Assembly: GCA_020722985.1 (NCBI GenBank)
Contig: DYJU01000001.1
Span: 4,943 to 68,942, forward strand
DNA length: 64,000 nucleotides
Direction: 5' to 3'
Origin: Candidatus Methylomirabilis sp.
Lineage (GTDB): Bacteria > Oederibacteriota > PGYV01 > DYJU01
In this document: positions 1 through 55,428 of the stretch, piece after piece
How positions within the stretch are numbered: the stretch's first letter is position 1
Layout of the letters: each line of letters opens with the position of its first letter
Notes under the pieces: generated by a model
Seen by the model: only the letters and a program-made list of their open reading frames with translations
Database searches by the model: none
What the model was told of the DNA's origin: nothing
Translations under genes and position numbers: made by a program

Positions 1-1710
1 GGGGAAGATGCAGATGATGCTATGGGTATTTGCTGGAAAGGCAATCTTTTTGCAGGATATAGAAAACCATGTGGAGGATGTGTCGCAGGAGAATCCTGTT
101 CAAAAGGTGACAGGGATAGCGACCATGATAATAATAATACCTTTGCAATAAATTTAAAAGGAAATAAAATTTCTGATTCTGATTCTGATATTTTATATGG
201 ATGTATATCAAAGGCTTATGTATATAATAGTAGTTATTCAGGTAGAGGAGAACTCGTTATTACAAATGTTGGATCTGCATCCAATACAGCCAAAGTTGAT
301 GTTTATAAATATCGCTCTTCATCATCAGGGCTTGTAGACCCTGTGCCAGTAAGTTCTGGTTCTTTTGGAAATAATGGAAACTGGATGTTGTGGAAATCAG
401 ATTTGAGTATTGCAGGACAGAGCAGTTTAACTGTTTATAATGGTTTACCTTATGATGATCAGTTATCCCCTTTGGCAGAAGAATATTACGGTAGTTTTAT
501 AAAAATAGTTTTAAAATCAGGCGGTCCTATTCAGGCAGTGGGCGGATCCAATATTTTCGGTGCACATTACGGTCAGGCAGATTATTTAGAAGCAGCAGAT
601 ACTAAACTTGCTGTAGGAACTGAATTTTATCTGGGAAATGCAAATTATCAGGCAGCAAGAACCTGGGCACCAAACCTTGACTGGTGGACAGATAATAAAG
701 GGGGTATTTTAATAGCCCTCTGTCCTATACCAAATACAACGGTTCAAATAGTTCAGGGAAATCTTGTTGACGTAGGCGCGGCGACAGAGCATGGAACAAA
801 TGCTTATAGTGGGACAACTTCACTTATACAAACAACAGGTGCAACACCTGACCAGGCATTAAAATTTTATAGTTTAAATACTGATACCACATATAAAATA
901 ACTTCTAATAATAAAATATATCTTATGTATCAAAATTTAAAAGGCAGGGAAAAAGTCTTTTCGGGCGTTGTTGTTGATGTTGAATTTTTAAATCCTCAGG
1001 TAAATTTAAGTAAAAGTGCAAGTTCATCTCAGGTATATCAGGGAGATACAGTCACATACACAATAAAATTTACAAATAATGGCATGGGAGATGCATATGA
1101 TACGATAGTCATTGATACAATACCTGCAAATGCTACATATATAGGTGCAAGTAGAGCACCAATTGGAAGTTCCGGTAATGTTTTTACATGGGCTTTAACC
1201 TCTCCCATACTGGCAAATGGAGGACAGGATTTATTTGATTTATATTTACAGATAAATGCACCGGCGAATACATGCGTTACAAATACCACAGATGCTCATT
1301 ATACTGATTCTACAGGTAATTCAAAATTTTCAAGAATATCAAATGAATCAATAGTTTGCGTTCTTGCAACAAGCACTATTGTTCCTGACTTAAGATTGGA
1401 GATAGTTACAAATTATCCAAATCCTTTTAATAAAGGGACAGTTTTAGTTTTTAATTTATCTGTAAAGGCAGAAGTTACAATAAAAGTTTTTACTCTGGCA
1501 GGAGAGACGGTAAGAACTTTAAAACCGCTTGATGTAAAACGCAATCTTGTTAATCAGGTGGATATAAGACCTGGAGAAAATAGAGTTTACTGGGATGGTC
1601 TTAATGATTATAATGAAAAGGTAAGTTCTGGAGTTTATATTTATAAGATAGAAGCAAAAACAAAAGATGAAAATATTTTCAAATTTTCTAAACTCGCTGT
1701 AATGAGATAA
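1..1710 (+). CDS. Secreted cell-surface protein, 5' end truncated by the window start. It has DUF11/CARDB-like beta-sandwich repeats and a T9SS-type, FlgD-Ig-like C-terminal sorting domain.
   Basis: The reading frame is open from position 1 and the first ATG is at 22. A DUF11-like segment reads VTYTIKFTNNGMGDAYDTIVIDTIPANATYIG. The last ~90 aa (YPNPFNKGTVLVFNL...VYWDGLNDYNEKVSSGVYIYKIEA) match the YPNPF...WDG...SGVY pattern of Por secretion CTDs. The stop codon is TAA. Confidence 0.6.
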   Translation, partial: GEDADDAMGICWKGNLFAGYRKPCGGCVAGESCSKGDRDSDHDNNNTFAINLKGNKISDSDSDILYGCISKAYVYNSSYSGRGELVITNVGSASNTAKVDVYKYRSSSSGLVDPVPVSSGSFGNNGNWMLWKSDLSIAGQSSLTVYNGLPYDDQLSPLAEEYYGSFIKIVLKSGGPIQAVGGSNIFGAHYGQADYLEAADTKLAVGTEFYLGNANYQAARTWAPNLDWWTDNKGGILIALCPIPNTTVQIVQGNLVDVGAATEHGTNAYSGTTSLIQTTGATPDQALKFYSLNTDTTYKITSNNKIYLMYQNLKGREKVFSGVVVDVEFLNPQVNLSKSASSSQVYQGDTVTYTIKFTNNGMGDAYDTIVIDTIPANATYIGASRAPIGSSGNVFTWALTSPILANGGQDLFDLYLQINAPANTCVTNTTDAHYTDSTGNSKFSRISNESIVCVLATSTIVPDLRLEIVTNYPNPFNKGTVLVFNLSVKAEVTIKVFTLAGETVRTLKPLDVKRNLVNQVDIRPGENRVYWDGLNDYNEKVSSGVYIYKIEAKTKDENIFKFSKLAVMR

Positions 1711-2754: not shown

Positions 2755-3132
2755 ATGAAAATTTTGATAGATGGCTATAATCTTTTACATCAATTAAAAT
2801 TTAAAGAAAAAATTTTTTCTGATAAAAGAGAAAGGTTAATTTGTTTGCTCGAAGATTTTAAGAAAATAAACGAAGTTGATATTACAGTGATTTTTGATGG
2901 TAAAAATCAGGAGTCGCAGATAAGGGGTTTTGAAAATAAAAACGGAATAAAAATAATATATTCGGCATCAGGAGAAACAGCAGACGATGTTATAATTGAT
3001 ATTTTAAAAAAAAGAAAAGAAAAACCAGAAAATTATGCAGTGGTTACATCAGATAATAAAATAATAAATTTTGCTTATGAAAATTCAATAAGAATTATTA
3101 CAAGTGAAAGTTTTGCAGATTATTTAATTTAA
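2755..3132 (+). CDS. YacP-like NYN-domain (PIN-like) predicted RNA-binding protein or ribonuclease
   Basis: The N-terminus reads MKILIDGYNLLHQ...ITVIFDG, which is typical of YacP/Rae1 NYN proteins. Size is 125 aa. Confidence 0.55.
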   Translation: MKILIDGYNLLHQLKFKEKIFSDKRERLICLLEDFKKINEVDITVIFDGKNQESQIRGFENKNGIKIIYSASGETADDVIIDILKKRKEKPENYAVVTSDNKIINFAYENSIRIITSESFADYLI

Positions 3133-4187
3133 CTCTGTTTTAAAAAAATTGTTTGAGTGGGATAGGCAAAGATAATATTCAATTTTGAAAATTCTTCAAA
3201 TATTTTTAAATTAATTTCCTGTTGAATATCCATATATTTATTATAATCATTGCCATTTACATAATAGACAATTTCATAAATTAAAGCAGAATCACCGTAA
3301 CTTGCAAAATGTGCTCTATCAAATTTTGTATCGTTGATGGATAAAATTATATTTTTAATAATATCAGGGAGCTTTTTTAATTTTTCCAGCGGGGTGTCAT
3401 AAGTTACACCTATTTTAAATTCAACCCGCCTTAAATACATTCTTTTATAATTTTTAATACTGGAATTTGTTAAGGCAGAATTAGAAAAAATAAGTTCTTC
3501 ACCACTTAAACTTCTTATTCTCGTAGTTTTAAGACCTATGGTTTCAATTGTTCCTGAAGCATCGCCGACTATTATGAAATCGTCAACTTCAAATGGTTTA
3601 TCAAAGATAATAACAAAATATGAAAATAAATCACCAAGAATTGCTTGTGCTGCAAGGGCAACTGCAATACCGCCAATTCCAAGTCCAGCAAGGACAGTGG
3701 AAATTTTATAACCTAAATTATCTAAAATTAAAATAAACCCTAATCCCCAGATAAATACTTTAAAAATTATTAAAAATCCTTTTAGATTTTTTATTTTTGA
3801 AGTATCTTTGCTTTTATTTATTAAATAAAATTCCATAAAAAATGAAATTAAATTTACAATAAATTTTAGAATAAAAAATGTTGCAGAAATGATAAATAAA
3901 ATTTTAATATATTTGAATATTTTATCCGGCAATTCAATAAAATTAAAAGCAATGTAAAAAACACTTAAATAGAATAAGGGAATTATTGTATTATTAATTG
4001 TTGAATTTAAAAAAGTAAAGAAGTTTGAAGTTTTATCATCTAAAAATTTTTTTGAAAAATTTTTATAGATTTTTTTTAATAAAAATATACAAAACCAGCC
4101 TGTGAAAATAACCGCAAGAAAAAGAAAAAAATTATAAAATGCAGGGGTATTTTTAAAAAATATAAATAATTTATTTAATTTTTCCAT
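3129..4187 (-). CDS. Small-conductance mechanosensitive channel, MscS family
   Basis: There are N-terminal transmembrane helices and a conserved MscS beta-domain block (FEVDDFIIVGDASGTIETIGLKTTRIRSLSGEELIFSNSALTNSSIKNY). This is the only long minus-strand gene in the window. Confidence 0.8.
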   Translation of the reverse strand: MEKLNKLFIFFKNTPAFYNFFLFLAVIFTGWFCIFLLKKIYKNFSKKFLDDKTSNFFTFLNSTINNTIIPLFYLSVFYIAFNFIELPDKIFKYIKILFIISATFFILKFIVNLISFFMEFYLINKSKDTSKIKNLKGFLIIFKVFIWGLGFILILDNLGYKISTVLAGLGIGGIAVALAAQAILGDLFSYFVIIFDKPFEVDDFIIVGDASGTIETIGLKTTRIRSLSGEELIFSNSALTNSSIKNYKRMYLRRVEFKIGVTYDTPLEKLKKLPDIIKNIILSINDTKFDRAHFASYGDSALIYEIVYYVNGNDYNKYMDIQQEINLKIFEEFSKLNIIFAYPTQTIFLKQS

Positions 4188-4238
4188 AAGTTGCTCCTTG
4201 GTTATAATTTATAATTGAATATAACAGAAAATAATAAT

Positions 4239-4284
4239 TTGTAAAATATTTTTTTTCTTTTATAATTTAACTATATGGTTAAAT
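4239..4284 (+). promoter_or_regulatory. Sigma70-like promoter (TTGTAA, 16-bp spacer, TATAAT) with a 20-bp near-palindromic operator ATTTAACtATATGGTTAAAT immediately downstream
   Basis: TATAAT lies at 4261-4266 and the palindrome at 4265-4284. The same promoter-plus-operator arrangement recurs at 9427-9472 upstream of the TetR-family regulator gene. This copy points rightward toward the RND operon and sits divergently from mscS. Confidence 0.45.
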
Positions 4285-4617
4285 ACAAAATATATGAGGT
4301 GGCATATGTATAAAAAAAAGGGTAATAATTTTTATTTTTTTAATATTCTGGATAATTCCTGCATTTTTATTTTTTAATTTTAAAAAAATTTTTACAGTGA
4401 ATTTGCTATTGAATACAGGAGCATAATTGCGCCTTCCTTTGTTGAAAATAATACGACAGGCACTTCATATTTTTTAGGTAAACCGGGGATAGATATTTCA
4501 AAATGGGTAAATATATATGCCGGTCTTTCTTTTGCTTTTTTTGCTGAACATGCAAATAAACAGCATCATTTATATATCTAAAGTATATCAAATAAAAGAT
4601 TCATCACTAAAAAAATA

Positions 4618-4931
4618 GTAATGATTTAGCCACCAGGAGTAATTAAAAAGTTCGTATATTAAAAAAGACCTGGCGATGTCATTCTTAGGAAGCCGAAGTA
4701 GAAGTGAAGTGAGAAAAATAAGGGCGTATGAGGCTTAAGGAAGCAATCTGGCAGTTGAAAAACGAAAGAAGACAACACTAAAAGGCGATCGGTGATAAAA
4801 TCAAGATTGCTCTGTCAGCCTCATCAAACGGTAGAATAGAAGATAGAGGGAATCATTCGCCTGACAACGCAATGACAAATAAAAAATTTATTTATGGACC
4901 AATTTTGTTCTGCTAACGGCTAAACTATTAC
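4618..4931 (+). mobile_element. MITE-like repeat bounded by terminal inverted repeats, copy 1 (~315 bp)
   Basis: The 5' end reads GTAATGATTTAGCCACCAGGAGT and the 3' end reads AACGGCTAAACTATTAC. The conserved core is cattcttaggaagccgaag...aagcaatctggcagttgaaaaacgaaagaagacaa...gataaaatcaagattgctctgtcag...tcgcctgac...gcaatgacaaa. It contains no consistent ORF. Confidence 0.65.
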
Positions 4932-5012
4932 AAAAAATAAATTTTTGCATAGAAAAAAATTTTTATTTAATTTAAAATATTTAAAATATATTTAATTTAA
5001 CTGGAGGATAAA

Positions 5013-5906
5013 ATGAATGAAAAGATAAAAAAATTGTTAATCATTTTTATAGTAATAATTTTTATAATTATTTTTTTTCGGATAATAAGAAAAATAATTA
5101 TAACAACGGGAAAATCAAAAGAAATTTTTTTTGAAGTTGGCATTGAAAAATTAGTTTTAAAAGAAATTACAGAGATAATAAAATTTGAAGGTGTTGTAGA
5201 AGGAGATCCACAGATAAAGGTATATTCACAGGTCCCGGGAAAATTTGAAAAAAATAATGTAATAGAAGGTAATTATGTTAGGAAAGACAATATAATTTCA
5301 TATATAAATAGAGATGTTATCGGTTTTGAATATAATTTAGCTCCTGTAAAATCGCCAATAGATGGAATTGTTGTAAAACTTTATTTTTTTGATAAAGGCG
5401 ATACTGTTTTTCCTCAGATGCCAGTTGCTGAAATTGCAAAAGTTGATAATTTAAAAGTGGTTATTAATACAGGTGAAAAAGATTTAATTAAATTAAAAAA
5501 AGACCAGGCAGCAAAAATTACTTTAATTTATGATGAAAATGTTTATCTTAAAGGAAAAGTTTTTTCTGTAACGCCATTTATAAATAAAGACACCCTTTCA
5601 GGAACAGTTGTAATAAAAGCAAAAAATCCCGAACAAAAAATTAAACCAGGACAATCTGTTAAAATTGAAATTGAAACAGAAAAGAAAATTGCGTTTTTAA
5701 TTCCAGATAAAGCAATATTGACAGATGAAAATGGCACATATGTTTTTATAAATGATAATAATACTGCTAAAAAAGTTTATGTTAAAATCGGTTATATAGA
5801 AAATGATTTAACGGAGATAATAGGAGATTTAAAGGAAGGAATAGAAGTAATTACAGAAGGTAGTTTTAAACTTTATGAAAATGCAAAAATAAAAATATTA
5901 AATTAA
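5013..5906 (+). CDS. Efflux RND transporter periplasmic adaptor subunit (membrane fusion protein, HlyD/AcrA family)
   Basis: It has an N-terminal transmembrane or signal anchor and biotinyl/lipoyl-like and beta-barrel adaptor motifs (VKSPIDGIVV; KPGQSVKIEIE). It sits immediately upstream of the RND pump with a 10-bp gap. A GGAGG ribosome-binding site precedes the ATG. Confidence 0.8.
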   Translation: MNEKIKKLLIIFIVIIFIIIFFRIIRKIIITTGKSKEIFFEVGIEKLVLKEITEIIKFEGVVEGDPQIKVYSQVPGKFEKNNVIEGNYVRKDNIISYINRDVIGFEYNLAPVKSPIDGIVVKLYFFDKGDTVFPQMPVAEIAKVDNLKVVINTGEKDLIKLKKDQAAKITLIYDENVYLKGKVFSVTPFINKDTLSGTVVIKAKNPEQKIKPGQSVKIEIETEKKIAFLIPDKAILTDENGTYVFINDNNTAKKVYVKIGYIENDLTEIIGDLKEGIEVITEGSFKLYENAKIKILN

Positions 5907-5916
5907 AAGGATAAAA

Positions 5917-8900
5917 ATGAATATCGCAAAATTAGCAATTGAAAGACCCATTTTTGTAGTAATGATAATCATGTCTTTAATTACTTTAGGGGTAATTGGT
6001 TATAATAACATGGGCGTTGATTTACTTCCCGATGTTGAATATCCAACAATTACAGTGATAATAATATATGGAGGAGCATCAGCAGAAGAAATGGAAAATT
6101 TAATAACAAAACCGGTAGAAGATGCATTAGGAACGATACAGGGATTAGATTCAATTATTTCCACATCAAAAGAAAATATAGCATATATAACTGCAAAATT
6201 CGGACTTGGAACAGATATAAAATATGCAGAAATGAAAGTAAAAGAAAAAATTGACCTTGTAAAAACTAAACTGCCAGATGGCATAGAAGAGCCAAAAGTA
6301 ACCAGATTTTCTTTAACAGATATACCAGTGATTGCTTTAACTTTACAGGGTAAAAAAGATCTTGCCACCTTGTATGATATCGTTGAAGATACTTTAAAGC
6401 CGGAGTTAGAAAAAATATCAGGTGTTGGTAAGGTTGAAATCTGGGGTGGGAGGCAACGGGCAGTTATGGTTTATATTAATAAATCTTTACTTTCAGCAAG
6501 GGCAATTACTTTAAATCAAATAGTTGAGTCAATTAAAAAAGAAAATTTAAATATACCGGCTGGTTCTTTAAAAACAGACAACAAAAGTATCATTGTGAGG
6601 GTAAAGGGGCAATCTGACAGTATTGATGAAATAAAAAATATCCCTATAAAAACTTATACAGGAGAAGTTGTAAGATTGAAAGATATCGCAGATGTTAAAT
6701 TTACTTTAAAAGATGAAGAAGCAAGGGCAAGGGCAGAAGGAGAAAACGCAATAAGAATTGGTGTTTATAAACAAAGTGGAGAAAATACTGTTGCGGTTGC
6801 AAAAAGGGTTAAAATAAAGTTAAAAGATATACAAAAAGTTTTAAAAGATGAAGCAAGTATAAAGATATTCAGGGATCCTTCGGAATATATAAAAATAAGC
6901 ATAAAAGGTTTGCAGGAAGACATTTTACTTGGTGCTTTATTTGCAATGCTTATTGTGTGGTTATTTATGGGTAATTTCAGATCAACGATAATTACTGCAA
7001 TAGCATTGCCAAATTCATTGATAGGGGCTTTCTTTTTTATTTCAAATTTTGGATTTACAATTAATCTTATGGTTTTGCTTGCGCTTTCTCTCTGTATTGG
7101 ACTTTTAATTGATGATTCCATAGTTGTAAGAGAAAATATTTTTAGATATATGGAAAAAGGATTAAAACCAAAAGAAGCAGCTGAAAAAGGAACCAATGAA
7201 GTAGCTCTTGCAGTTGTTGCAACAACCATTTCAATTATGGCAGTTTTTATACCCATTTCTTTTTTACAGGGGGTAGTGGGACAATATTTCAAACAATTTG
7301 GTTTAACGGTTGCTTTTGCTTTAGTAATATCTTTAATTGATGCGTTTACTACAGCACCCATGCTATCTGCTTACTGGTGGAAAAAACATAAAAAAGGGGA
7401 AGGTGAATTTAATAAATTTTTTGATAAACTTTCTTATGAATGGAATTTATTTTATGAAAAGTTAAACAGCATTTACAGAGAAATACTTATCTGGGCGTTA
7501 GAAAAAAAGAAAAAAGTTTTATCAATTGTAATACTTTTATTTATTTTCAGTATAATATGCCTGAAATTTATTGGACTTAGTTTTTTACCTGACACGGATT
7601 ATCATAACTATGAGTTAAAATTTGAAACTTACCCGGGCGCTACACTTGATGAAACAGATAACAAAATAAAAAAAATTGAAAAGTATATTATGTCACACAA
7701 AGAAACTTTAAAATGTTTTACCGCAGTTGGGACAGATGGAGAAAATACCGGCACAATATTTGTGGAGACGGATAAGAAAAAACAAAAAAAACCAACACAG
7801 ATGATAGTAGAAGAAGTTATAAGTTATATAAAGAAAAATTATGGCAGTGATTTATTGATAAATCAGGAAGAAACAGGTGGAGCAGAAGTTATCTCGGGTG
7901 GTGGAGATAGTGCTTCTCTGGTTATAAATATAACTGGTCCAGAAATGAAAACTTTAGAAAAGTTAGCAACAGAAATAAAAAATGTAATATTAGAGACAGG
8001 GGGAGTATCTGGTGCGAATACTTCATTAAAAACAGGCAAACCAGAAATAATTATAAAGTTAGATAGAACCAAAGCATCAAGTTTTGGTATAACAAGTTAT
8101 GATATTGGTATTTTATTAAATTTTCTTATAAAAGGTGCTGAAATATCAAAATTTAAAAAGCGTGAAAAAGAATATGATATTATTTTAAGAATGAAAAAAA
8201 ACAATATCAAAACAATTGATGATTTAAAAGATATAATCATAACAACTTCTGCGGGTAAAAAAATACCATTAAACGCAATAAGCACAATGGAATATACGAC
8301 AGGTCCTGTTGAAATATTAAGAGAAAATAAAAAAAGAGTAATAAAAATTACTGGAAATTTACAGCATGGGTTTGCATTGGGCGATGTTATAAATATGATA
8401 AACGAAAATATTAAACGAAATGTTAAAATTCCAGAAGGTTATGAATATAATTTTTCAGGACAGGCAACACAGATGACAGAAACTATAACCCAGATGAGTA
8501 AGGCAATGTTTTTTGCGCTGCTTTTTATGTATATGATACTTGCATCTCTTTATAATTCTTTTATCCAGCCGCTTATTTTAATGCTTTCTGTTCCTCTTGC
8601 AATAATAGGCGCTTTTCTTACGCTTTTGCTTTTTGGAATAAAAATGGATGTTATGGCTATGATAGGAATTTTAATGGTTTTAGGTCTTGTCGCAAAAAAT
8701 GGAATACTACTTATAGATTTTACAAATCAGAAGAGAAAAGAAGGCTTATCAGCAAGAGATGCTTTGCTATATGCAGGTCCAATAAGGTTAAGGCCGATTT
8801 TGATGACTACATTTGCAATGATATTTGGAATGTTGCCGCTTGCTTTGGGTTTTGGAGAAGGACCGATGAGAACAAGAGCAATGCCTGTTGCAGTAATAGG

Positions 8901-9009
8901 CGGGTTGCTTACTTCTACTTTCCTAACTCTTGTTGTGATACCGATTGTGTATGAAATGTATGAGAATTTTAAAGAGAGGTTTAGTAAAAAAGTTAATAAA
9001 AAAAATTGA
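5917..9009 (+). CDS. RND efflux pump, inner-membrane permease of the AcrB/AcrD/AcrF family (hydrophobe/amphiphile efflux-1)
   Basis: The protein is 1030 aa with the classic AcrB N-terminus (IERPIFVVMIIMSLITLGVIGYNNMGVDLLPDVEYPTITV). It has the duplicated 12-TM architecture with two large periplasmic loops. No outer-membrane factor gene follows it. Confidence 0.9.
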   Translation: MNIAKLAIERPIFVVMIIMSLITLGVIGYNNMGVDLLPDVEYPTITVIIIYGGASAEEMENLITKPVEDALGTIQGLDSIISTSKENIAYITAKFGLGTDIKYAEMKVKEKIDLVKTKLPDGIEEPKVTRFSLTDIPVIALTLQGKKDLATLYDIVEDTLKPELEKISGVGKVEIWGGRQRAVMVYINKSLLSARAITLNQIVESIKKENLNIPAGSLKTDNKSIIVRVKGQSDSIDEIKNIPIKTYTGEVVRLKDIADVKFTLKDEEARARAEGENAIRIGVYKQSGENTVAVAKRVKIKLKDIQKVLKDEASIKIFRDPSEYIKISIKGLQEDILLGALFAMLIVWLFMGNFRSTIITAIALPNSLIGAFFFISNFGFTINLMVLLALSLCIGLLIDDSIVVRENIFRYMEKGLKPKEAAEKGTNEVALAVVATTISIMAVFIPISFLQGVVGQYFKQFGLTVAFALVISLIDAFTTAPMLSAYWWKKHKKGEGEFNKFFDKLSYEWNLFYEKLNSIYREILIWALEKKKKVLSIVILLFIFSIICLKFIGLSFLPDTDYHNYELKFETYPGATLDETDNKIKKIEKYIMSHKETLKCFTAVGTDGENTGTIFVETDKKKQKKPTQMIVEEVISYIKKNYGSDLLINQEETGGAEVISGGGDSASLVINITGPEMKTLEKLATEIKNVILETGGVSGANTSLKTGKPEIIIKLDRTKASSFGITSYDIGILLNFLIKGAEISKFKKREKEYDIILRMKKNNIKTIDDLKDIIITTSAGKKIPLNAISTMEYTTGPVEILRENKKRVIKITGNLQHGFALGDVINMINENIKRNVKIPEGYEYNFSGQATQMTETITQMSKAMFFALLFMYMILASLYNSFIQPLILMLSVPLAIIGAFLTLLLFGIKMDVMAMIGILMVLGLVAKNGILLIDFTNQKRKEGLSARDALLYAGPIRLRPILMTTFAMIFGMLPLALGFGEGPMRTRAMPVAVIGGLLTSTFLTLVVIPIVYEMYENFKERFSKKVNKKN

Positions 9010-9044: not shown

Positions 9045-9362
9045 GTAATAGTTTAACCATCAGAAGCAACTTATGAAAGTTCATATATTAGTAAAAGCCC
9101 CTTGAAGTTGTCATTCTCAGGAAGCCGAAAGGGGAGAATGAAAAACAAATGGCGTATGAGAATTAACAAAGCAATATAGCAGTTGAAAGCATGAAGCAAA
9201 AAAGGTGAGAAGGCAATCGGTAATAAAAGCAAGATTGCTCTGTCAGTCTCATTTAACGATGGGGTTAAAAAATAGGGGTTATAGTTCGTCTGACTTTAAA
9301 ATGGAAAGGCAAAAAAATTTATTTATGGGCGAAATTTATTCAACCAGTAACTAAATTATTAT
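9045..9362 (+). mobile_element. MITE-like TIR-bounded repeat, copy 2
   Basis: It starts GTAATAGTTTAACCATCAGAAG, shares the family core, and ends CAACCAGTAACTAAATTATTAT. It lies between the RND pump stop and the tetR promoter. Confidence 0.65.
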
Positions 9363-9426
9363 AATTTTTAATTTATTTAACTGTCCGCCATGTCTTTCAT
9401 TATTCCCATTAACAATAAAATTTTAC

Positions 9427-15099: not shown

Positions 15100-15294
15100 A
15101 AATATTGTTGATCTTAGAATATTAGTTAGCGGTTAAAAAATCATATAGAATTACTTACTATAGATTAAAAAGAGTCGGTAAACGAATCTCATACAATAGA
15201 TAAAAAAATTTATGATTTGCGGTTCGGGGTTTATAAATAAAAATAACTTTTTTGAATTTGTATTATTTAAATATTATTTATTTTTATTCAACAC

Positions 15295-15322
15295 TTGACA
15301 GGGGAGGGTAGTATGCTATAAT
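15295..15322 (+). promoter_or_regulatory. Near-consensus sigma70 promoter: TTGACA, 16-bp spacer, TATAAT
   Basis: The exact sequence is ttgacaggggagggtagtatgctataat. It points toward the methyltransferase gene about 250 bp downstream. Confidence 0.4.
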
Positions 15323-15578
15323 TTTTATAATTGTTACAAGATAGTGAAAAAAATTTTTTAAATACATTAAAAAAACTTTAATTATTAATTATCGCAAACA
15401 ATTTTGTTGACTTGAGGAATCTGAATTTTACGTTTTTTTTAAAGGAAAAAATGAAAAAAAAGTCAAATATAAACAAAAAAGAAAAGAAAAATATTTTGTA
15501 AAAGAAAATTTTTTAACTACAATTGAATATAATAATGGAAGAAAAATAAAAAATAGTGAAGAAAATAAGCAAGTAACA

Positions 15579-16412
15579 ATGCATAATCTGGTTATAGTAG
15601 ACAAAGAAGATGAAAATTATTCTTTTGATAAAATTTCAAATAAAGTTATTTTAGGTGATTGTTTTAAAGTAATGAAAAGGTTGCCTTCCGAATTTGCCGA
15701 TTGTGTCTTTGTTGATCCCCCTTATTTTTTGCAACTCCCACCTAAAAAATTATTAAGGTGGACCGGTAGCATAGTTGATGGTGTAAATGACAAGTAGGAT
15801 ATTTTTAAAGATTTTGATGATTATGATAATTTTACAAAAAATTATTTGACGGAAATTAAAAGATTAATGAAACCCAATGCAACTATCTGGATTATAGGGA
15901 CATATCATAATATTCATAGAATTGGAAAGATAATGTTAGATTTGGGCTTTTGGATTTTAAATGATATAATATGGTTTAAGACAAATCCAATGCCTAATTT
16001 TTTAGGCGTTAGATTTACAAATGCTACAGAAACTTTACTTTGGGCTGTAAAAGATAAAAAAATAAAAAAATATACTTTTAATAAAGAAATTGCCAGAAGT
16101 TTCAATGGCGGTAAATTGGGAATAAATGTATGGCAAATACCGCTTTGCACTGGACGGGAGAGATTAAGAAATGAAAAAAAGGAGAAAATACATTCAACAC
16201 AAAAACCACAAGAATTATTAAGAAGAGTTATTTTAACATCTACAAAAGAAAATGATGTTATTTTTGACCCGATGGCTGGCACTGGAACAACTGGATTTAT
16301 GGCAAAAAAATTAAATCGTAAATTTGTAATGATAGAAAAAAATAAAGATTACGTTGATGCCATTGTTAAAAGATTTGAGACAGAATTTAATTCTTTATTA
16401 TTTAAAACATGA
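15579..16412 (+). pseudogene. Beta-class (DPPY) N6-adenine or N4-cytosine DNA methyltransferase of the CcrM/M.HinfI type, interrupted by a single in-frame TAG
   Basis: ORFs 15579-15797 and 15846-16412 lie in the same reading frame. Only the TAG at 15795-15797 separates them. Motif IV (VFVDPPY) comes first, then IWIIGTYHNI..FWILNDIIWFKTNPMPNF, then the C-terminal SAM-binding FDPMAGTGTTG. The TAG falls where CcrM-like enzymes have Trp (DEWDKF against DK*DIF), which fits a TGG to TAG change. Confidence 0.65.
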
Positions 16413-17275
16413 ATTATAAAAATTTTTGTTTAATTTTAAATAAACATATTTTTGAAGATGAAAAAAAAGAATTATTAAAAAATATCTCTGAAAGGCCAGA
16501 GCGTTTTATCGGATTGTTCAGACCTACAAAACCTGGTGCTAAAATTCTTCAACATATTTTGTAATCACACGAAATCAGATTTGGCGATGCTTTTGAAGAG
16601 TTAATAGGAGAAATTTTAAGAGAGTGTGGGTTTGTAATTCATAATAAAACAATTACTGATGAAAATGGAAATTTTTTATCATTGGATCAATATTATGAAA
16701 TAAATGAGATTTATTATTTTATTGAACAGAAAGTAAGGGATGATCATGACTCTACTAAAAAACGAGGACAAATCTCTAATTTTGAATCAAAATTAGAGAT
16801 ATTGTATAAAAAACACAAAGAGAAACTTGTTGGGATTATGTATTTTATTGATCCAGAACTTTCAAAAAATAAAAATTATTATTTGCCTGAATTAAATAAA
16901 TTATGTAAATTTTATGATGTTAAAACTTATTTGTTTTATGGAAAAGAATTATTTAATCATCTTGGCAGGTCAGATTTATGGAATCATATTCTCTCCTGGT
17001 TGAAAGAATGGAAAGACAGCTTACCGGAAATCCCGGAAATTGATTTTGATAAAACGCCAGAAAAAAGTTTTGAACAATTGAAAGAATTACCAATTAGATA
17101 TTGGCGTAAGGTATTAGAAAATGAAAAATTATGGACAGAAGGAATTGTTAAAGCAATTTTTAGAAAAGGCGAAGTACTAAAATTATTATTAGAATATTTT
17201 AAACAACAAAAAGACAAGCCACACATTGAATTATCAAAATTGCTAAAGGATTTATTAAAAAAATATTATGGTTAA
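16409..17275 (+). pseudogene. Probable cognate type II restriction endonuclease gene, interrupted by an in-frame TAA. Specific function is unassigned.
   Basis: Its ATG at 16409 overlaps the methyltransferase TGA in an ATGA arrangement. A 51-codon N-terminal segment ends at a TAA at 16562-16564. The listed ORF 16682-17275 continues in the same frame, and the frame is already open from 16565. Position directly after a methyltransferase is typical of an R-M pair, but no catalytic motif was recognised. Confidence 0.35.
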
Positions 17276-17344: not shown

Positions 17345-17742
17345 GTAATAGTTCAACTTCCAGAAGTTCGTTTATAAAAGTTCATATATTAGCAGAAAAC
17401 TCTTGAAGACGGACTTCTTAGGAAGCCAAAAGAAAAGTGTAAAAGATTAAATAAGGATTAATGTGAGCCAGACGAAGCAATTTTGCAGTTAAAAAACGAA
17501 AGAAGACAACACTAAAAGGCGTCAGGTGATAAAAGCAAGATTGCTTTGTCGGGTTCAATTAAACGAGGGAATAGAAGACAAAGGGGTTTGTTCGTCTGAC
17601 ATTTAGAAGGTAGAGACGCCCATCCTTGGGCGTCTACACCCGGGGAATAGAAGATAAAGGAATTCATTCACCTGACTTTAAATGACAGAACAAAAAATTT
17701 ATATATGGGTAAAATTTATTCAATCAGCAACTAAATTATTAT
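17345..17742 (+). mobile_element. MITE-like TIR-bounded repeat, copy 3, carrying an internal ~75-bp duplication
   Basis: It starts GTAATAGTTCAACTTCCAGAAGT and ends CAGCAACTAAATTATTAT. The segment gaatagaaga..cctgac is duplicated inside it and includes a perfect hairpin, agacgccca-tcct-tgggcgtct, at 17605-17626. Confidence 0.65.
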
Positions 17743-17808
17743 AATTTTTAACTTCTTTAATCGTGCATCCTATATTTCCTTATTCCTCAACCTGTGCAAT
17801 TTTTTTAC

Positions 17809-19166: not shown

Positions 19167-19488
19167 GTAATAGTTAAGCCACTAGAAGTGAATTTGTAAA
19201 AGTTTGGCTACTAGTAAGGAAACACTTGGCGATGTCATTGCGAGGAAGCCGAAAGAAAAGTGTAGAAAGAAAAATAAAAAGCGGACGAGGCTGACGAAGC
19301 AATCTGGCAGTTGAAAAACGGAAGCAGACAAGGTGAGAAAGCATCATGTGATAAAATCAAGATTGCTTTGTCGGGCGGGAGTTAACTGTGGAATAAAATG
19401 CATAAGTTATCGTTCGCCTGACTTTAAAATGACAGAACAAAAATTTATTTATAGACTGATTTTATTTTATTGGTGGCTAAACTATTGC
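19167..19488 (+). mobile_element. MITE-like TIR-bounded repeat, copy 4
   Basis: It starts GTAATAGTTAAGCCACTAGAAGT and ends TGGTGGCTAAACTATTGC. The internal ORF 19333-19542 is not conserved in frame among copies. Confidence 0.65.
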
Positions 19489-19604
19489 AAATCTCTCTTT
19501 AACTGTTTACCATGTCTATCCTTATTCCCAGTAAAAATATAAAAATATTTGTAAAATTTATTTATTTTGTTATACTTATATAAGTAAATTTCAAGGAGGT
19601 AAAA

Positions 19605-24574: not shown

Positions 24575-24902
24575 GTAATAGTTCGGATACCAGAGGTAAT
24601 TTATAAAAGTGCATATATTAGAAAAAAACTCTTGAAGGCGTTGATGGAAGAAAGCCGAAAAAGAATGGTGGAATGGGAAATAAGGGTAACGGGTAACGGA
24701 AGGATTAATAAAGCAATCTTGCAGTTTAAAAATGAAAGAAGACAAGGCGAAAAGGCAACCGTAAATAAAATCAAGATTACTTTGTCATGCAAAATTTAAG
24801 GTGTAATAGTAGATAAATGGACCCATTCACCTGACTTTAAAATGACAAAGCGAAAAATTTATATCTGGACTAATTTTGTTTTACCAGTGGCTAAACTATT
24901 AC
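24575..24902 (+). mobile_element. MITE-like TIR-bounded repeat, copy 5
   Basis: It starts GTAATAGTTCGGATACCAGAGGT and ends TACCAGTGGCTAAACTATTAC. The ORFs 24569-24799 (+) and 24557-24745 (-) are artefacts within it. Confidence 0.65.
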
Positions 24903-27111: not shown

Positions 27112-27431
27112 GTAAAAATTTAGTCACCAGAGGTAATTTACAAAAGTTCAGATATTAGTAAAAAACTCTTGAAGACGGCCTTCTTAGGAATCCGAAAGAG
27201 AAGCGTAGAAAGAAAAATAAAGGGCGGACGAGCAAAATGAAGCAATCTTGTAATTGTATAGCGGCAAGAAAACTAAGCTAAAAAACAATCGGTAATAAGA
27301 GCAAAGATTATTTTTAAGGTGGGAGTTAACTGTGAAATAAAAGACAAAAGGGCTTGTTTGCCTGACTTTAAAATGACAACAAAAAATTTATTTATTGGCA
27401 AATTTTATTATGCTAGTGGTAAAATTATTGC
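27112..27431 (+). mobile_element. MITE-like repeat, copy 6, with a degenerate 5' TIR
   Basis: The 5' end is GTAAAAATTTAGTCACCAGAGGT. The core is conserved (ggaatccgaaagagaag...aagcaatcttgtaattg...). The 3' end is GCTAGTGGTAAAATTATTGC. Confidence 0.55.
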
Positions 27432-27615: not shown

Positions 27616-27832
27616 ATGAAATTTAATATCATTCTTGAATCGGCTGAGGAAGGTGGTTTTAATGTGAGTGTTCCGGCCGCTTGACGGATGTTTTACGCAA
27701 GGGGTAACCGAAGAAGAAGCGATTAAAAACGCTAAAGAGGCTATTCTCACATATCTGGAAGGACTTAAAAAAATTAATCAAATTAAATCAGTGCTGAAAG
27801 CCATTCTGAAAGAAGTTGAGATAGTGCTGTGA
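27616..27832 (+). pseudogene. hicB: HicB-family antitoxin gene with a +1 frameshift
   Basis: The N-terminal frame gives MKFNIILESAEEGGFNVSVPAA and then a stop at 27682. The next frame continues RPLDGCFTQGVTEEEAIKNAKEAILTYLEGL, which matches the HicB consensus VPALPGCF.QG.T.EEA. A ribosome-binding site AAGGAGG is present. Confidence 0.6.
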
Positions 27833-28044
27833 GCAAGACTTTTTTAGAGGAGTAGGTAATAAAAGCACTGAGGAGAATCGGCTTTATTGTTGACCATCAG
27901 AGAGGAAGTCATGTATTCTTGCATAACATTGAACGTAATATCTCTGTTGTTGTGCCTATGCATAAGGAGTTAAAAAAAGGGACGTTAAATAACATAATCA
28001 AGAAAGCAGGCATTACAGTAGATGAATTAAAGGAACTGGTATAA
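27829..28044 (+). pseudogene. hicA: HicA-family mRNA interferase toxin gene with an in-frame TAG at codon 9
   Basis: Its GTG start overlaps the hicB stop in a GTGA arrangement. The translation reads [61 protein letters not shown]. The GSH..., VP.H and G.L...I...G motifs are typical of HicA. Confidence 0.6.
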
Positions 28045-28110
28045 TTTTTGATGATACAGTTCAAGAATTGTGTGGAAAAATTAATTAACATAAAAGGGTG
28101 CGCCTTGCCA

Positions 28111-28499
28111 GTAATGGTTCAGCCGCCAGAAGTGAACTTGGAAGAGTGTGGCTACCATTAAGTAAATATATGGCATTGTCATTTTTAGGAAGCCGAAAGA
28201 GGAATGTAAAATGGGAAATAAGGATAATATGAGCCGAATGAAGCAATCTTGCAGTTGAAAAACGAAAGAAGACAATATTAAAAGGCGATCGGTAGTAAAA
28301 AGCAAGATTGCTTTGTCAGGCGATAGTGAATGTATAAAAAATATAGGTTATCATTCGCTTTGCTTTAAAATGACAACGGAAAAAATTTAATGATTAATTT
28401 TGTTCTACCAGTGGCTAAGCTATTACCCTGATTTTGCAATGAAAGAGCGAAAAATTTATATCTTAACAAATTTTATTTTACCAACGGCTATACTGTTAC
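28111..28499 (+). mobile_element. MITE-like repeat, copy 7 (28111-28426), followed by a tandem partial duplicate of its 3' end (28427-28499)
   Basis: It starts GTAATGGTTCAGCCGCCAGAAGT. Its first 3' end is CTACCAGTGGCTAAGCTATTAC. The partial unit then repeats gcaatgaaagagcgaaaaatttatat...CCAACGGCTATACTGTTAC. Confidence 0.6.
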
Positions 28500-48828: not shown

Positions 48829-49154
48829 GTAATAGTTTTGCCATTAGAAGTCCACTTGTAAAAGTATGGCTACTAGTAAGGAAAACCCTAACTATTGTCA
48901 TTCTTAGGAAGCCGAAAGAGAAGTTAAGAAGAGGAAATAAGGGCGGACGGACGAGCCAGACGAAGCAATCTGGCAGTTGAAAAACGAAAGAAGACAAGAT
49001 AAAAAGGCGCTCAGGTATAAAAGCAAGATTGCTTTGTCAGACTCATTAAACGGAGGAATAGAAGTCAGAAGTTATCGTTTGCCTGACTTCGCAATGACAA
49101 AGTAAAAAATTTATTTATTGACCAATTTTGTCCTATCAGTGGCTAAAATGTTAC
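48829..49154 (+). mobile_element. MITE-like TIR-bounded repeat, copy 8
   Basis: It starts GTAATAGTTTTGCCATTAGAAGT and ends ATCAGTGGCTAAAATGTTAC. Confidence 0.65.
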
Positions 49155-55105: not shown

Positions 55106-55428
55106 GTAATAGTTCAGACACCAGAAGTCCACCTGTAAAAGTGTGATTACTAGAAAGAAAATACATGGCTTTGGCATTCTTAGGAAGCCGAAATAAAAGT
55201 TAAGAAGGGAAAATAAGGGCATATGAGGCTTAAGGAAGCAATATGGCAGTTAAAAGCCAGAAGATGATAATGGAAGAAGGCATTTTGTGATAAAAGCAAG
55301 ATTGCTTTGTCAGGCGAGAGTTAAGGTGGAATAGAAGGCAGTGGTTATCATTCGCCTGACTTCGCAATGACAAAATGAAAAAATTTATATATGGACAAAA
55401 TTTATTCTGCCAGTGGCTAAAATATTAC
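55106..55428 (+). mobile_element. MITE-like TIR-bounded repeat, copy 9
   Basis: It starts GTAATAGTTCAGACACCAGAAGT and ends CTGCCAGTGGCTAAAATATTAC. Confidence 0.65.

What the first reader, a model, noticed from the sequence alone, without database searches (positions are those of the whole stretch)
4239..5012. Repeat copy 1 sits between a promoter/operator and the RND efflux operon it presumably drives
The TTGTAA-16-TATAAT promoter and the ATTTAACtATATGGTTAAAT operator at 4239-4284 point rightward. The 315-bp element at 4618-4931 lies between them and the adaptor gene start at 5013. If transcription starts near 4270, the element forms most of a roughly 740-nt 5' UTR. This could act as an RNA-level regulatory or stability module, or it could be an insertion that has uncoupled the pump from its operator.
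Basis: partly seen in the sequence, partly recalled or inferred. Interest (0 to 1): 0.55.

Follow-up and report, generated by a model that had tools for sequence, protein, structure and literature searches.

The report
Mobile repeat inserted upstream of efflux pump
The 314-bp element in front of the efflux-pump genes is one copy of a small non-coding jumping-DNA family (a MITE with IS66/ISBst12-type ends) that is absent from the same sites in related genomes, so it is an ordinary insertion and not a dedicated pump regulator.

Summary
The TTGTAA-16-TATAAT match and the 7-bp palindrome are no commoner than chance in this 16-20% GC spacer. The element at 4618-4931 is real. It is one of nine full copies in the window, all on the + strand and all intergenic. 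It has about 20-bp terminal inverted repeats that start with GTAA. A perfect 8-bp target-site duplication (AAAAAATA) flanks it, and another (CATGAAGA) flanks a copy in a second genome. Its ends match 11 of 15 bases with a bona fide ISBst12-group (IS66 family) insertion sequence that also makes an 8-bp duplication. Orthologous loci in relatives (75-88% protein identity) lack the element at four of four comparable sites. There, a marR gene or an outer-membrane-factor gene sits directly upstream of the adaptor gene. The roughly 80 nt just upstream of the adaptor start codon are conserved with the closest relative and contain a promoter-like site. The pump therefore probably keeps a proximal promoter downstream of the insertion. 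There is no Rfam match, no significant covariation, and no link to the function of neighbouring genes. One feature remains unexplained: every copy or copy cluster examined (13 sites) points the same way as the flanking genes. Verdict: a new MITE family, which is a known kind of element, and of modest interest.

The parts
4239..4266 (+). Sigma-70-like promoter match, TTGTAA-16-TATAAT
   Evidence: scores it 10/12. Such sites are not enriched over shuffles (8 found against 6.6 +/- 2.9).
4218..4245 (-). Overlapping promoter-like match TTTACA-16-TATATT (with TG) that faces mscS (3129-4187, minus strand)
4265..4284 (.).
   Evidence: One search shows the sequence. One search shows it is not above chance (4 such repeats against 1.4 +/- 1.6, p about 0.1).
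4306..4580 (+). Degenerate reading frame with its own RBS (4296-4302). In-frame stops lie at 4375-4377 and 4381-4383. Its origin is unknown; it may be a gene remnant.
   Evidence: Searches show the frame. No homologue was found. Similarity to the outer-membrane-factor gene of relative L006 is not significant.
4610..4617 (.). Left copy of the 8-bp target-site duplication AAAAAATA
   Evidence: 8/8 match at offset 0, with a null probability of 1e-4. One search shows the empty-site alignment.
4618..4931 (+). Copy c1 of the repeat family, a 314-bp MITE-like element
   Evidence: nhmmer E = 1.6e-85.
4618..4636 (+). Left terminal inverted repeat, GTAATGATTTAGCCACCAG
   Evidence: helix 1 is 92% paired. 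The GTAA...TTCAGCC type matches ISBst12-group ends.
4740..4749 (+). 5' arm of the internal inverted repeat, GAAGCAATCT. It is among the most conserved blocks of the family.
4804..4813 (+). 3' arm of the internal inverted repeat, AGATTGCTCT
4910..4931 (+). Right terminal inverted repeat, CTGCTAACGGCTAAACTATTAC
4932..4939 (.). Right copy of the 8-bp target-site duplication AAAAAATA
4950..4978 (+). Proximal promoter-like site TAGAAA-17-TAAAAT. It lies inside the roughly 80-nt stretch conserved with relative L006, where the hexamers read TAGAAA-17-TAGAAT.
5003..5007 (+). Ribosome-binding site GGAGG of the adaptor gene
   Evidence: The site is conserved in L006.
5013..5906 (+). RND periplasmic adaptor gene
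5917..9009 (+). RND inner-membrane pump gene (ACR_tran)
9045..9362 (+). Copy c2, between the pump gene and the tetR-ABC operon
17345..17742 (+). Copy c3, which carries a 52-nt internal duplication and an inserted hairpin
19167..19488 (+). Copy c4
24575..24902 (+). Copy c5. It ends 37 nt before the helicase start codon, so it must be part of that gene's transcript.
27112..27431 (+). Copy c6
28111..28499 (+). Copy c7 (28111-28426) with an abutting 3' fragment (28427-28499, model positions 248-319)
48829..49154 (+). Copy c8, upstream of mutL. The site is empty in relatives L014 and L015, and the 281 nt held upstream of mutL in L013 carry no copy.
55106..55428 (+). Copy c9, after the GlcNAc 2-epimerase gene. 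The site is empty in relatives L013 and L015.

Best explanation
The element at 4618-4931 is a non-autonomous DNA transposon (a MITE). Its ends are of the IS66-family, ISBst12-group type. It encodes no protein. It was inserted by a DDE transposase supplied in trans, which duplicated 8 bp of target (AAAAAATA). The insertion site is the spacer between a now-degenerate upstream reading frame and the RND adaptor gene. The family expanded in this lineage to about one copy per 7 kb in the window, in ordinary intergenic spacers.

At this locus the roughly 80-nt region proximal to the adaptor gene was left intact. That region holds a promoter-like site and the RBS, so the pump operon is most likely still expressed from a promoter downstream of the element. 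Any transcript that enters from upstream would carry the element in sense orientation, with its ends able to form a stem of 13-19 bp.

Shown here: repeat family membership, terminal inverted repeats, the target duplication, the empty orthologous sites, and the resemblance of the ends to ISBst12-group elements. Inferred: the identity of the mobilising transposase, the activity of the proximal promoter, and the absence of a specific regulatory role.
For: 1. Copy number and position. There are nine full copies plus fragments in 64 kb, all intergenic.

2. Ends. Terminal inverted repeats of 19-22 bp begin with GTAA.

3. Target duplications. Perfect 8-bp direct repeats flank c1 (AAAAAATA) and the L003 copy (CATGAAGA), and c2 matches 6/8. 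The null probability of 8/8 is 1e-4 per site.

4. Literature. IS66-family elements have terminal repeats that start with GTAA(GCG) and make 8-bp direct repeats (PMC11946415). ISDge4, of the ISBst12 group, has the repeat GTAACTGCTCAGCA and an 8-bp direct repeat (PMC12898284).

5. Direct comparison. The IS66-like element of plasmid pHTA426 ends in GTAACTATTCAGCCC with the 8-bp duplication AACTCGTC. The family's end GTAATAGTTCAGCCA matches it at 11 of 15 positions, including TTCAGCC at the same offset.

6. Empty orthologous sites. The c1 site is empty in L006, and the reconstructed pre-insertion sequence aligns collinearly across the junction. Sites c1 and c2 are empty in L007 and L008-L012. Site c8 is empty in L014 and L015, and the 281 nt upstream of mutL held in L013 carry no copy. 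Site c9 is empty in L013 and L015. In total, about 100 kb of relatives' DNA holds 0 copies, against 9 in the 64-kb window.

7. No coding capacity. There is no transposase remnant or conserved ORF in the copies.

8. Neutral decay. Private substitutions are spread evenly along the element (variance/mean 0.85) and are not depleted in otherwise conserved columns. This is as expected for neutral decay after insertion.

9. No functional link. Neighbouring genes are functionally unrelated.
Against: Most copies lack a recognisable target duplication. Matches of 2-5 out of 8 are close to random. This includes copies with very few private changes (c4, c8, L005).

No cognate autonomous element with these ends was found. 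There is no transposase gene in the window, and the rest of the genome could not be searched.

Random insertion by a DDE transposase does not predict the strict co-orientation of all 13 copies or copy clusters with the flanking genes.

The most invariant blocks are internal: AAGCAAT, CAAGATT and AGGAAGCCGAAA. They are not terminal, which hints at a constraint other than transposase binding.
Confidence: 0.78

Rival explanations
1. The family is, or has become, a functional sense-strand RNA module. It is co-transcribed with its neighbours and folds into a multi-helix structure closed by the terminal stem. It acts on the mRNA, for example in processing, in stability, or in protection from Rho-dependent polarity. 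Copy c1 would then modulate expression of the pump.
For: Every copy or cluster is co-oriented with the flanking genes. One contig (L004) has copies on both strands, each following its own gene.

Copy c5 ends 37 nt before a start codon and the L003 copy ends 52 nt before one, so both must lie within transcripts.

In the predicted helices G-U pairs outnumber A-C mismatches on the + strand by 73 to 25. The excess is weaker in the terminal stem alone, at 25 to 13.

The terminal stem, a long-range helix (GTCATT/AATGAC) and two internal helices are 86-94% paired, against 33-45% in slid controls.

The + strand is purine-rich and C-poor, with GC skew +0.25 to +0.29. The antisense transcript would therefore be C-rich and G-poor, like a Rho loading site. 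This last point is inference.
Against: No covariation measure exceeds the shuffles (215/500, 153/500 and 120/500).

Consensus folding energies are equal on the two strands. The folding z-score of c1 is only -1.2.

There is no Rfam match even at E <= 10.

The element is absent from the orthologous sites of relatives.

Private substitutions are not depleted in conserved blocks.

The G-U excess is biased, because the structure was predicted on the + strand.
Confidence: 0.15
2. The orientation bias reflects the replication direction and not transcription. An end-asymmetric transposition mechanism coupled to the replication fork inserts copies in one orientation on the leading strand, and most genes also lie on that strand.
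For: In the window 38 of the 47 listed ORFs of 100 aa or more are on the + strand, and most of the nine on the - strand lie inside + strand genes. Cumulative GC skew rises steadily. Orientation relative to genes and orientation relative to replication are therefore confounded for the nine window copies.
Against: In L004, elements lie on opposite strands within 4 kb. Each lies downstream of, and is co-oriented with, a divergently transcribed gene. As far as I know, fork-coupled orientation has not been reported for IS66-family elements.
Confidence: 0.05
3. The 4239 promoter and palindrome are the true control region of the pump operon. The element would then be a long 5'-UTR insert that attenuates or uncouples regulated expression.
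For: No terminator-like site lies between 4267 and 5013. In the closest relative an outer-membrane-factor gene lies directly upstream of the adaptor in the same orientation, so an upstream promoter serving the pump is plausible. There is a locally similar stretch, TTTCTTTTATAATTT in the window against TTTCTTTTAAAATTT upstream of that gene in L006.
Against: The promoter and the palindrome are not above chance. Similarity of 4188-4400 to the L006 upstream region is not significant (score 26 against 20.8 +/- 3.6). A degenerate ORF with its own RBS follows the promoter. A promoter-like site conserved with L006 lies downstream of the element. More distant relatives regulate the operon with a marR gene, which is missing here.
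Confidence: 0.12

Closest known systems
ISBst12-group / IS66-family insertion sequences (for example ISDge4 and the IS66-like element of Geobacillus kaustophilus plasmid pHTA426)
   Same: Both have terminal inverted repeats that begin with GTAA, followed by ..TTCAGCC. The match is 11/15 to the pHTA426 element and 10/14 to ISDge4. Both make an 8-bp target duplication.
   Different: This element is only about 320 bp long. It has no transposase gene and no detectable transposase remnant. Its internal sequence is unrelated to those elements. No cognate autonomous partner was identified.
Correia elements (CREE) of Neisseria
   Same: Both are abundant intergenic MITEs with long terminal inverted repeats. 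When co-transcribed, the repeats form a long RNA hairpin, and the elements can alter expression of neighbouring genes (from my own knowledge).
   Different: Correia elements are 100-155 bp with 26-bp repeats and a TA duplication. They occur in both orientations and have different ends and a different transposase lineage. Effects on RNA are not shown for the present element.
ERIC/IRU and MIRU intergenic repeats
   Same: These too sit in transcribed intergenic regions of operons. MIRUs are co-oriented with the flanking genes (from my own knowledge).
   Different: They are much shorter, at 40-127 bp. They have no GTAA ends or 8-bp duplications. MIRUs overlap stop and start codons as small ORFs, which is not the case here.
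Large multi-copy structured RNAs linked to mobile elements (HEARO/IscB omega RNA, TnpB omega RNA, IS110 bridge RNA)
   Same: They are of similar size (about 300 nt), occur in multiple copies, and are associated with mobile DNA.
   Different: There is no Rfam hit to HEARO or to any other family, even at E <= 10. No nuclease or recombinase gene lies next to any copy. Covariation is not significant.

Membership tests
MITE derived from an IS66-family (ISBst12-group) insertion sequence | Terminal inverted repeats of about 15-30 bp that begin with GTAA | tested here: met
   The ends GTAATAGTTYAGCCACCAG and CTGGTGGCTAAACTATTAC occur in 12 copies. Helix 1 is 92% paired. The family hallmark is taken from PMC11946415.
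MITE derived from an IS66-family (ISBst12-group) insertion sequence | 8-bp target-site duplication | tested here: inconclusive
   The duplication is perfect (8/8) for c1 and for the L003 copy, 6/8 for c2, and 8/8 with a 1-2 nt offset for c6. It is near random for the other copies. Two perfect matches among 12 copies has a probability of about 7e-7 by chance, so a duplication is made, but most copies have lost it or never had it.
MITE derived from an IS66-family (ISBst12-group) insertion sequence | End sequence similar to that of bona fide family members | tested here: met
   The match is 11/15 to the pHTA426 IS66-like element (GTAACTATTCAGCCC) and 10/14 to ISDge4 (GTAACTGCTCAGCA).
MITE derived from an IS66-family (ISBst12-group) insertion sequence | Short, non-coding, multi-copy | tested here: met
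   Copies are 314-328 bp. No conserved ORF was found and there is no tblastn match to an IS66-like transposase. The window holds nine copies.
MITE derived from an IS66-family (ISBst12-group) insertion sequence | Presence/absence polymorphism at orthologous sites | tested here: met
   Sites c1, c2, c8 and c9 are empty in relatives.
MITE derived from an IS66-family (ISBst12-group) insertion sequence | A cognate autonomous element with the same ends in the same or a related genome | not testable with these tools
   Only the window and a few short contigs of the carrier genomes are available. No such transposase lies in the window.
Curated structured RNA family (Rfam) | A match to a covariance model at or near the gathering score | tested here: not met
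   There were 0 matches at gathering score in the whole window. Only chance-level hits (E of 0.2 or higher) appeared in relaxed scans of c1, c3 and c4.
Conserved structured RNA (any) | Compensatory base changes that support the helices | tested here: not met
   Five pairs change on both sides, against 3.8 +/- 1.5 in shuffles. The covariation score is 0.128 against 0.124.
Cis-regulatory 5' leader of the RND operon | Conserved upstream of orthologous operons or of functionally related genes | tested here: not met
   The element is absent from all seven orthologous RND loci recovered. The other copies flank unrelated genes.

The most novel reading that the evidence does not exclude
The family is a domesticated, strictly sense-oriented RNA module. 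It began as a MITE, but only copies transcribed in the purine-rich orientation are kept. In that orientation it acts as an intercistronic or UTR element, for example as an RNase-processing or stability site, or as a spacer that resists Rho. This would explain the co-orientation of all copies and the invariant internal inverted repeat.
Probability: 0.15. Interest if true: 0.55.

Novelty: new member of a known kind. Interest (0 to 1): 0.3.

Why it matters
The practical consequence is for annotation. The long 'UTR' upstream of this efflux operon is a mobile-element insertion. It should not be read as a riboswitch-like leader or as evidence for a distal operator.

The family is a previously undescribed, very dense MITE in an uncultivated lineage whose nearest named relatives are Candidatus Goldbacteria. 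It occurs about once per 7 kb and makes up about 4.5% of this window. To my knowledge MITEs with IS66/ISBst12-type ends are rarely reported. Elements this dense break assemblies and shape the evolution of intergenic regions.

The strict co-orientation with transcription is the one feature that could lead somewhere new. It might reflect orientation-dependent polarity, or domestication of a MITE as an RNA element.

Tried and rejected
1. Known RNA families. Rfam gave nothing at gathering score over the whole window, and relaxed scans of c1, c3 and c4 gave only chance-level hits. No tRNA or tmRNA was found.

2. RNA structure. RNAalifold on both strands gave equal energies. The covariation test was not significant. 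Single-sequence z-scores were -1.2 for c1 and -2.4 for c8.

3. Small conserved ORF. The 'MSFLGSR..' peptide seen in some copies was rejected. Its start codon varies (ATG, TTG, ATT or none), its length varies from 10 to 23 aa, and indels shift the frame.

4. Conserved promoter inside the element. None was found on either strand at a fixed alignment position.

5. More family members. The genome collection gave only 3 contigs, all from one cave metagenome. The metagenome collection gave 0 with the internal pattern. With the end pattern it gave 4 contigs. Three of them are one eukaryotic locus (Bin3, SAM and CSL zinc-finger genes). None carries more than the last 28 nt of the element, so I treat these as chance. 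Viral contigs gave 0, and plasmids and phages gave no match.

6. Identity of the 4285-4580 segment. A homologue search found nothing. It has no significant similarity to the outer-membrane-factor gene or the upstream region of L006, or to the marR regions of L007 and L008.

7. IS200/IS605-type, IS110-type and group II intron origins. These were considered because of the abutting partial copies and the TTAC-like 3' end. They were rejected because the element has long terminal inverted repeats and a target duplication.

8. Orthology between the L004 gene and the window's epimerase gene. This would have provided orthologous element copies, but the two genes are not related.

Full report
**Observation**

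The stated sequences are present at the stated coordinates.
- TTGTAA lies at 4239-4244, followed by a 16-nt spacer and TATAAT at 4261-4266.
- The palindrome is ATTTAAC (4265-4271), N6, GTTAAAT (4278-4284).
- A G+C-richer, purine-rich element spans 4618-4931. It is 314 bp, with GC 0.37-0.39 against 0.15-0.20 around it, and GC skew and AT skew of about +0.3.
- The adaptor ATG is at 5013.

The promoter and the palindrome do not exceed chance in this AT-rich spacer.
- The scan found 8 promoter-like sites in 4100-5100, against 6.6 +/- 2.9 in shuffles.
- One of them is an overlapping minus-strand site that faces mscS. Another is a plus-strand site at 4950-4978.
- Perfect inverted repeats of at least 7 bp numbered 4, against 1.4 +/- 1.6 in shuffles, and 10% of shuffles reached 4.

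Directly after the promoter come an RBS (GAGGTGG) and an ATG at 4306. They open a frame that runs to 4580 but has two in-frame stops. It has no detectable homologue.

**The element is a member of a dense repeat family**

The window holds nine full copies:

| Copy | Coordinates |
|---|---|
| c1 | 4618-4931 |
| c2 | 9045-9362 |
| c3 | 17345-17742 |
| c4 | 19167-19488 |
| c5 | 24575-24902 |
| c6 | 27112-27431 |
| c7 | 28111-28426 |
| c8 | 48829-49154 |
| c9 | 55106-55428 |

A 3' fragment abuts c7, and other 3'-end scraps follow c6. Pairwise identity between copies is 65-87%. All copies are intergenic and on the + strand, as are nearly all genes of the window.

The neighbouring genes are unrelated in function. 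They include the RND pump, a tetR-ABC operon, a DUF4143 ATPase, rmuC, a DinG-like helicase, an OmpA-like protein, mutL, a GlcNAc 2-epimerase and large surface proteins.

**Anatomy**

The two ends are inverted repeats of 19-22 bp: GTAATAGTTYAGCCACCAG and CTGGTGGCTAAACTATTAC. Inside lie three further complementary segments:
- a 10-13-bp inverted repeat, GAAGCAATCT and AGATTGCTTT, separated by about 50 nt;
- a second, GTCAGGC and GCCTGAC;
- a long-range pair, GTCATT and AATGAC.

In the consensus structure 90.5% of cells are paired, against 33-45% when the partners are slid by a few columns. The complementarity is therefore real. It is held by conservation and not by compensation, because no covariation measure exceeds the shuffles.

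Three further results bear on an RNA reading:
- Consensus folding energy is the same on both strands.
- G-U pairs outnumber A-C mismatches on the + strand by 73 to 25 overall and by 25 to 13 in the terminal stem. This is a weak hint, and it is biased because the structure was predicted on the + strand.
- No Rfam family matches, even in relaxed scans.

**Evidence that it is mobile DNA**

*Target-site duplications.* The 8 bases on either side of c1 are identical (AAAAAATA). So are those flanking the copy in contig L003 (CATGAAGA). For c2 the match is 6/8. An 8/8 match has a probability of 1e-4 per site in this window.

*Empty sites in relatives.* The window's adaptor and MutL proteins have relatives at 66-88% identity. 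The nearest named ones are Candidatus Goldbacteria.
- In L006 (87% adaptor identity) an outer-membrane-factor gene is followed by a 143-nt spacer and then the adaptor. The window sequence, with the element and one copy of the duplication removed, aligns collinearly with that spacer across the junction.
- In L007 (76%) the synteny is the same (DUF11, thiI, yacP, mscS), but a 146-aa marR gene ends 19 nt before the adaptor. No copy follows the pump.
- L008-L012 have the same marR-adaptor-pump or a comparable arrangement.
- Upstream of mutL, the fn3-to-mutL spacer is 60 nt in L014 and 40 nt in L015, and it carries no element. The 281 nt upstream of mutL that are held for L013 carry none either. 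L013 and L015 have no copy after the epimerase gene.
- An HMM of the family finds no copy in any of these roughly 100 kb.

*Distribution.* Elsewhere the family was found only in three contigs of MAGs from one cave metagenome. It was not found in the metagenome, viral, plasmid or phage collections.

**Which kind of mobile element**

GTAA termini together with an 8-bp duplication are the hallmark of the IS66 family (PMC11946415).
- ISDge4, of the single-ORF ISBst12 group, has ends GTAACTGCTCAGCA and an 8-bp direct repeat (PMC12898284).
- I read the ends of the annotated IS66-like element of G. kaustophilus plasmid pHTA426 directly. They are GTAACTATTCAGCCC and GGGCTGAATAGATAC, flanked by the 8-bp duplication AACTCGTC.
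- The family's end, GTAATAGTTCAGCCA, matches the pHTA426 end at 11 of 15 positions, including TTCAGCC at the same offset.
- The copies contain no transposase remnant.

The best description is a MITE with ISBst12-group ends. The partner transposase was not found. That could not be tested, because only the window and a few short contigs of the carrier genomes are available.

**What this means for the pump locus**

The roughly 80 nt between the element and the adaptor ATG are conserved with L006. They include TAGAAA-17-TAAAAT at 4950-4978 (TAGAAA-17-TAGAAT in L006) and the GGAGG ribosome-binding site. I infer that a proximal promoter downstream of the insertion still serves the operon.

The upstream promoter and palindrome more plausibly belonged to the degenerate frame at 4306-4580. 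That frame may be what is left of the outer-membrane-factor gene present in L006, but the similarity is not significant. The marR regulator of more distant relatives is absent here.

Read-through from 4239 cannot be excluded, because no terminator-like site was found. The 'regulatory 5' UTR module' alternative is not.

**What remains unexplained**

*Orientation.* Every copy or copy cluster is co-oriented with its flanking genes. That covers nine in the window and one each in L003 and L005. In L004, copies lie on both strands, each following its own divergently transcribed gene. Random DDE insertion does not predict this. Possible causes, all inferred:
- Selection against the antisense orientation. 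The antisense transcript would be C-rich and G-poor, like a Rho loading site.
- Selection against inversions between oppositely oriented copies.
- A role at the RNA level.

Copy c5 ends 37 nt before a start codon, so it must be transcribed.

*Missing duplications.* Most copies lack a duplication, even though some have very few private substitutions. Abutting partial copies occur at c7, in L004 and inside c3. Both observations suggest frequent recombination or rearrangement at the copies.

*Pattern of variation.* Private substitutions are spread evenly along the element (variance/mean 0.85) and are not depleted in conserved blocks. This fits neutral decay after insertion. The shared variation then reflects diverse source copies.

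**Verdict**

This is a real feature and an ordinary kind of element: a new MITE family with IS66/ISBst12-type ends, inserted upstream of the RND operon. It is not a dedicated regulator of the pump. Interest is modest. The strict sense orientation is the only lead worth following.

Noticed in passing
window 27616-28040: A degraded hicB/hicA-like toxin-antitoxin pair lies between copies c6 and c7. The HicB-like frame is interrupted, and the HicA-like frame ends ...[12 protein letters not shown] read this by eye from the sequence and did not scan it against profile libraries.
   Followed up: no
window 28053-28098: A 46-nt stretch is 93% identical to the sequence next to an IS256-family (Transposase_mut) gene in relative L013. 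It is probably a solo IS256-like end, lying immediately upstream of copy c7.
   Followed up: partly
window 9363-9410, 17743-17790 and 19489-19532; L004 about 20-75 (minus strand): A second conserved module (TTTAACTGT..CCATGTCT.TCCTTATTCCCA) lies just 3' of four copies of the element. It is followed by TTGACA-type promoter-like sequences for the downstream genes. Its nature is unknown.
   Followed up: partly
window 17605-17640 (inside copy c3); L003 about 4840-4855: A G+C-rich hairpin, GTAGAGACGCCCA-TCCT-TGGGCGTCTAC, is inserted in c3 together with a 52-nt internal duplication. The same GGGCGTCTCTAC motif lies upstream of the L003 copy. It may be a separate small palindromic repeat.
   Followed up: partly
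window 57284-58000: A long array with 12-nt periodicity is made of ACN (threonine) codons. It lies in what appears to be a very large ORF running to the end of the window.
   Followed up: no
window 15846-16412: An N6/N4 DNA methylase ORF of 188 aa matches only positions 37-220 of the Pfam profile. It lies in a region (15100-17275) with few intact ORFs, so it may be a truncated gene.
   Followed up: no
L016 4975-5008 (also L018 and L019): A eukaryotic metagenome contig (Bin3, SAM-domain and CSL zinc-finger genes) contains TTTATTTATTGGACCAGTGGCTAAATTATTAC. This resembles the last 50 nt of the element with 12 nt missing. No second end was found, so it is probably chance.
   Followed up: partly
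L007 6300-6400: In the 76%-identity relative, the mscS-marR spacer holds a near-consensus promoter (TTGACA-N17-TATAAT-like) followed by a 20-bp palindrome, TAATTAGGTTAACCTAATTA. This is a likely MarR operator. It has no counterpart in the window.
   Followed up: no
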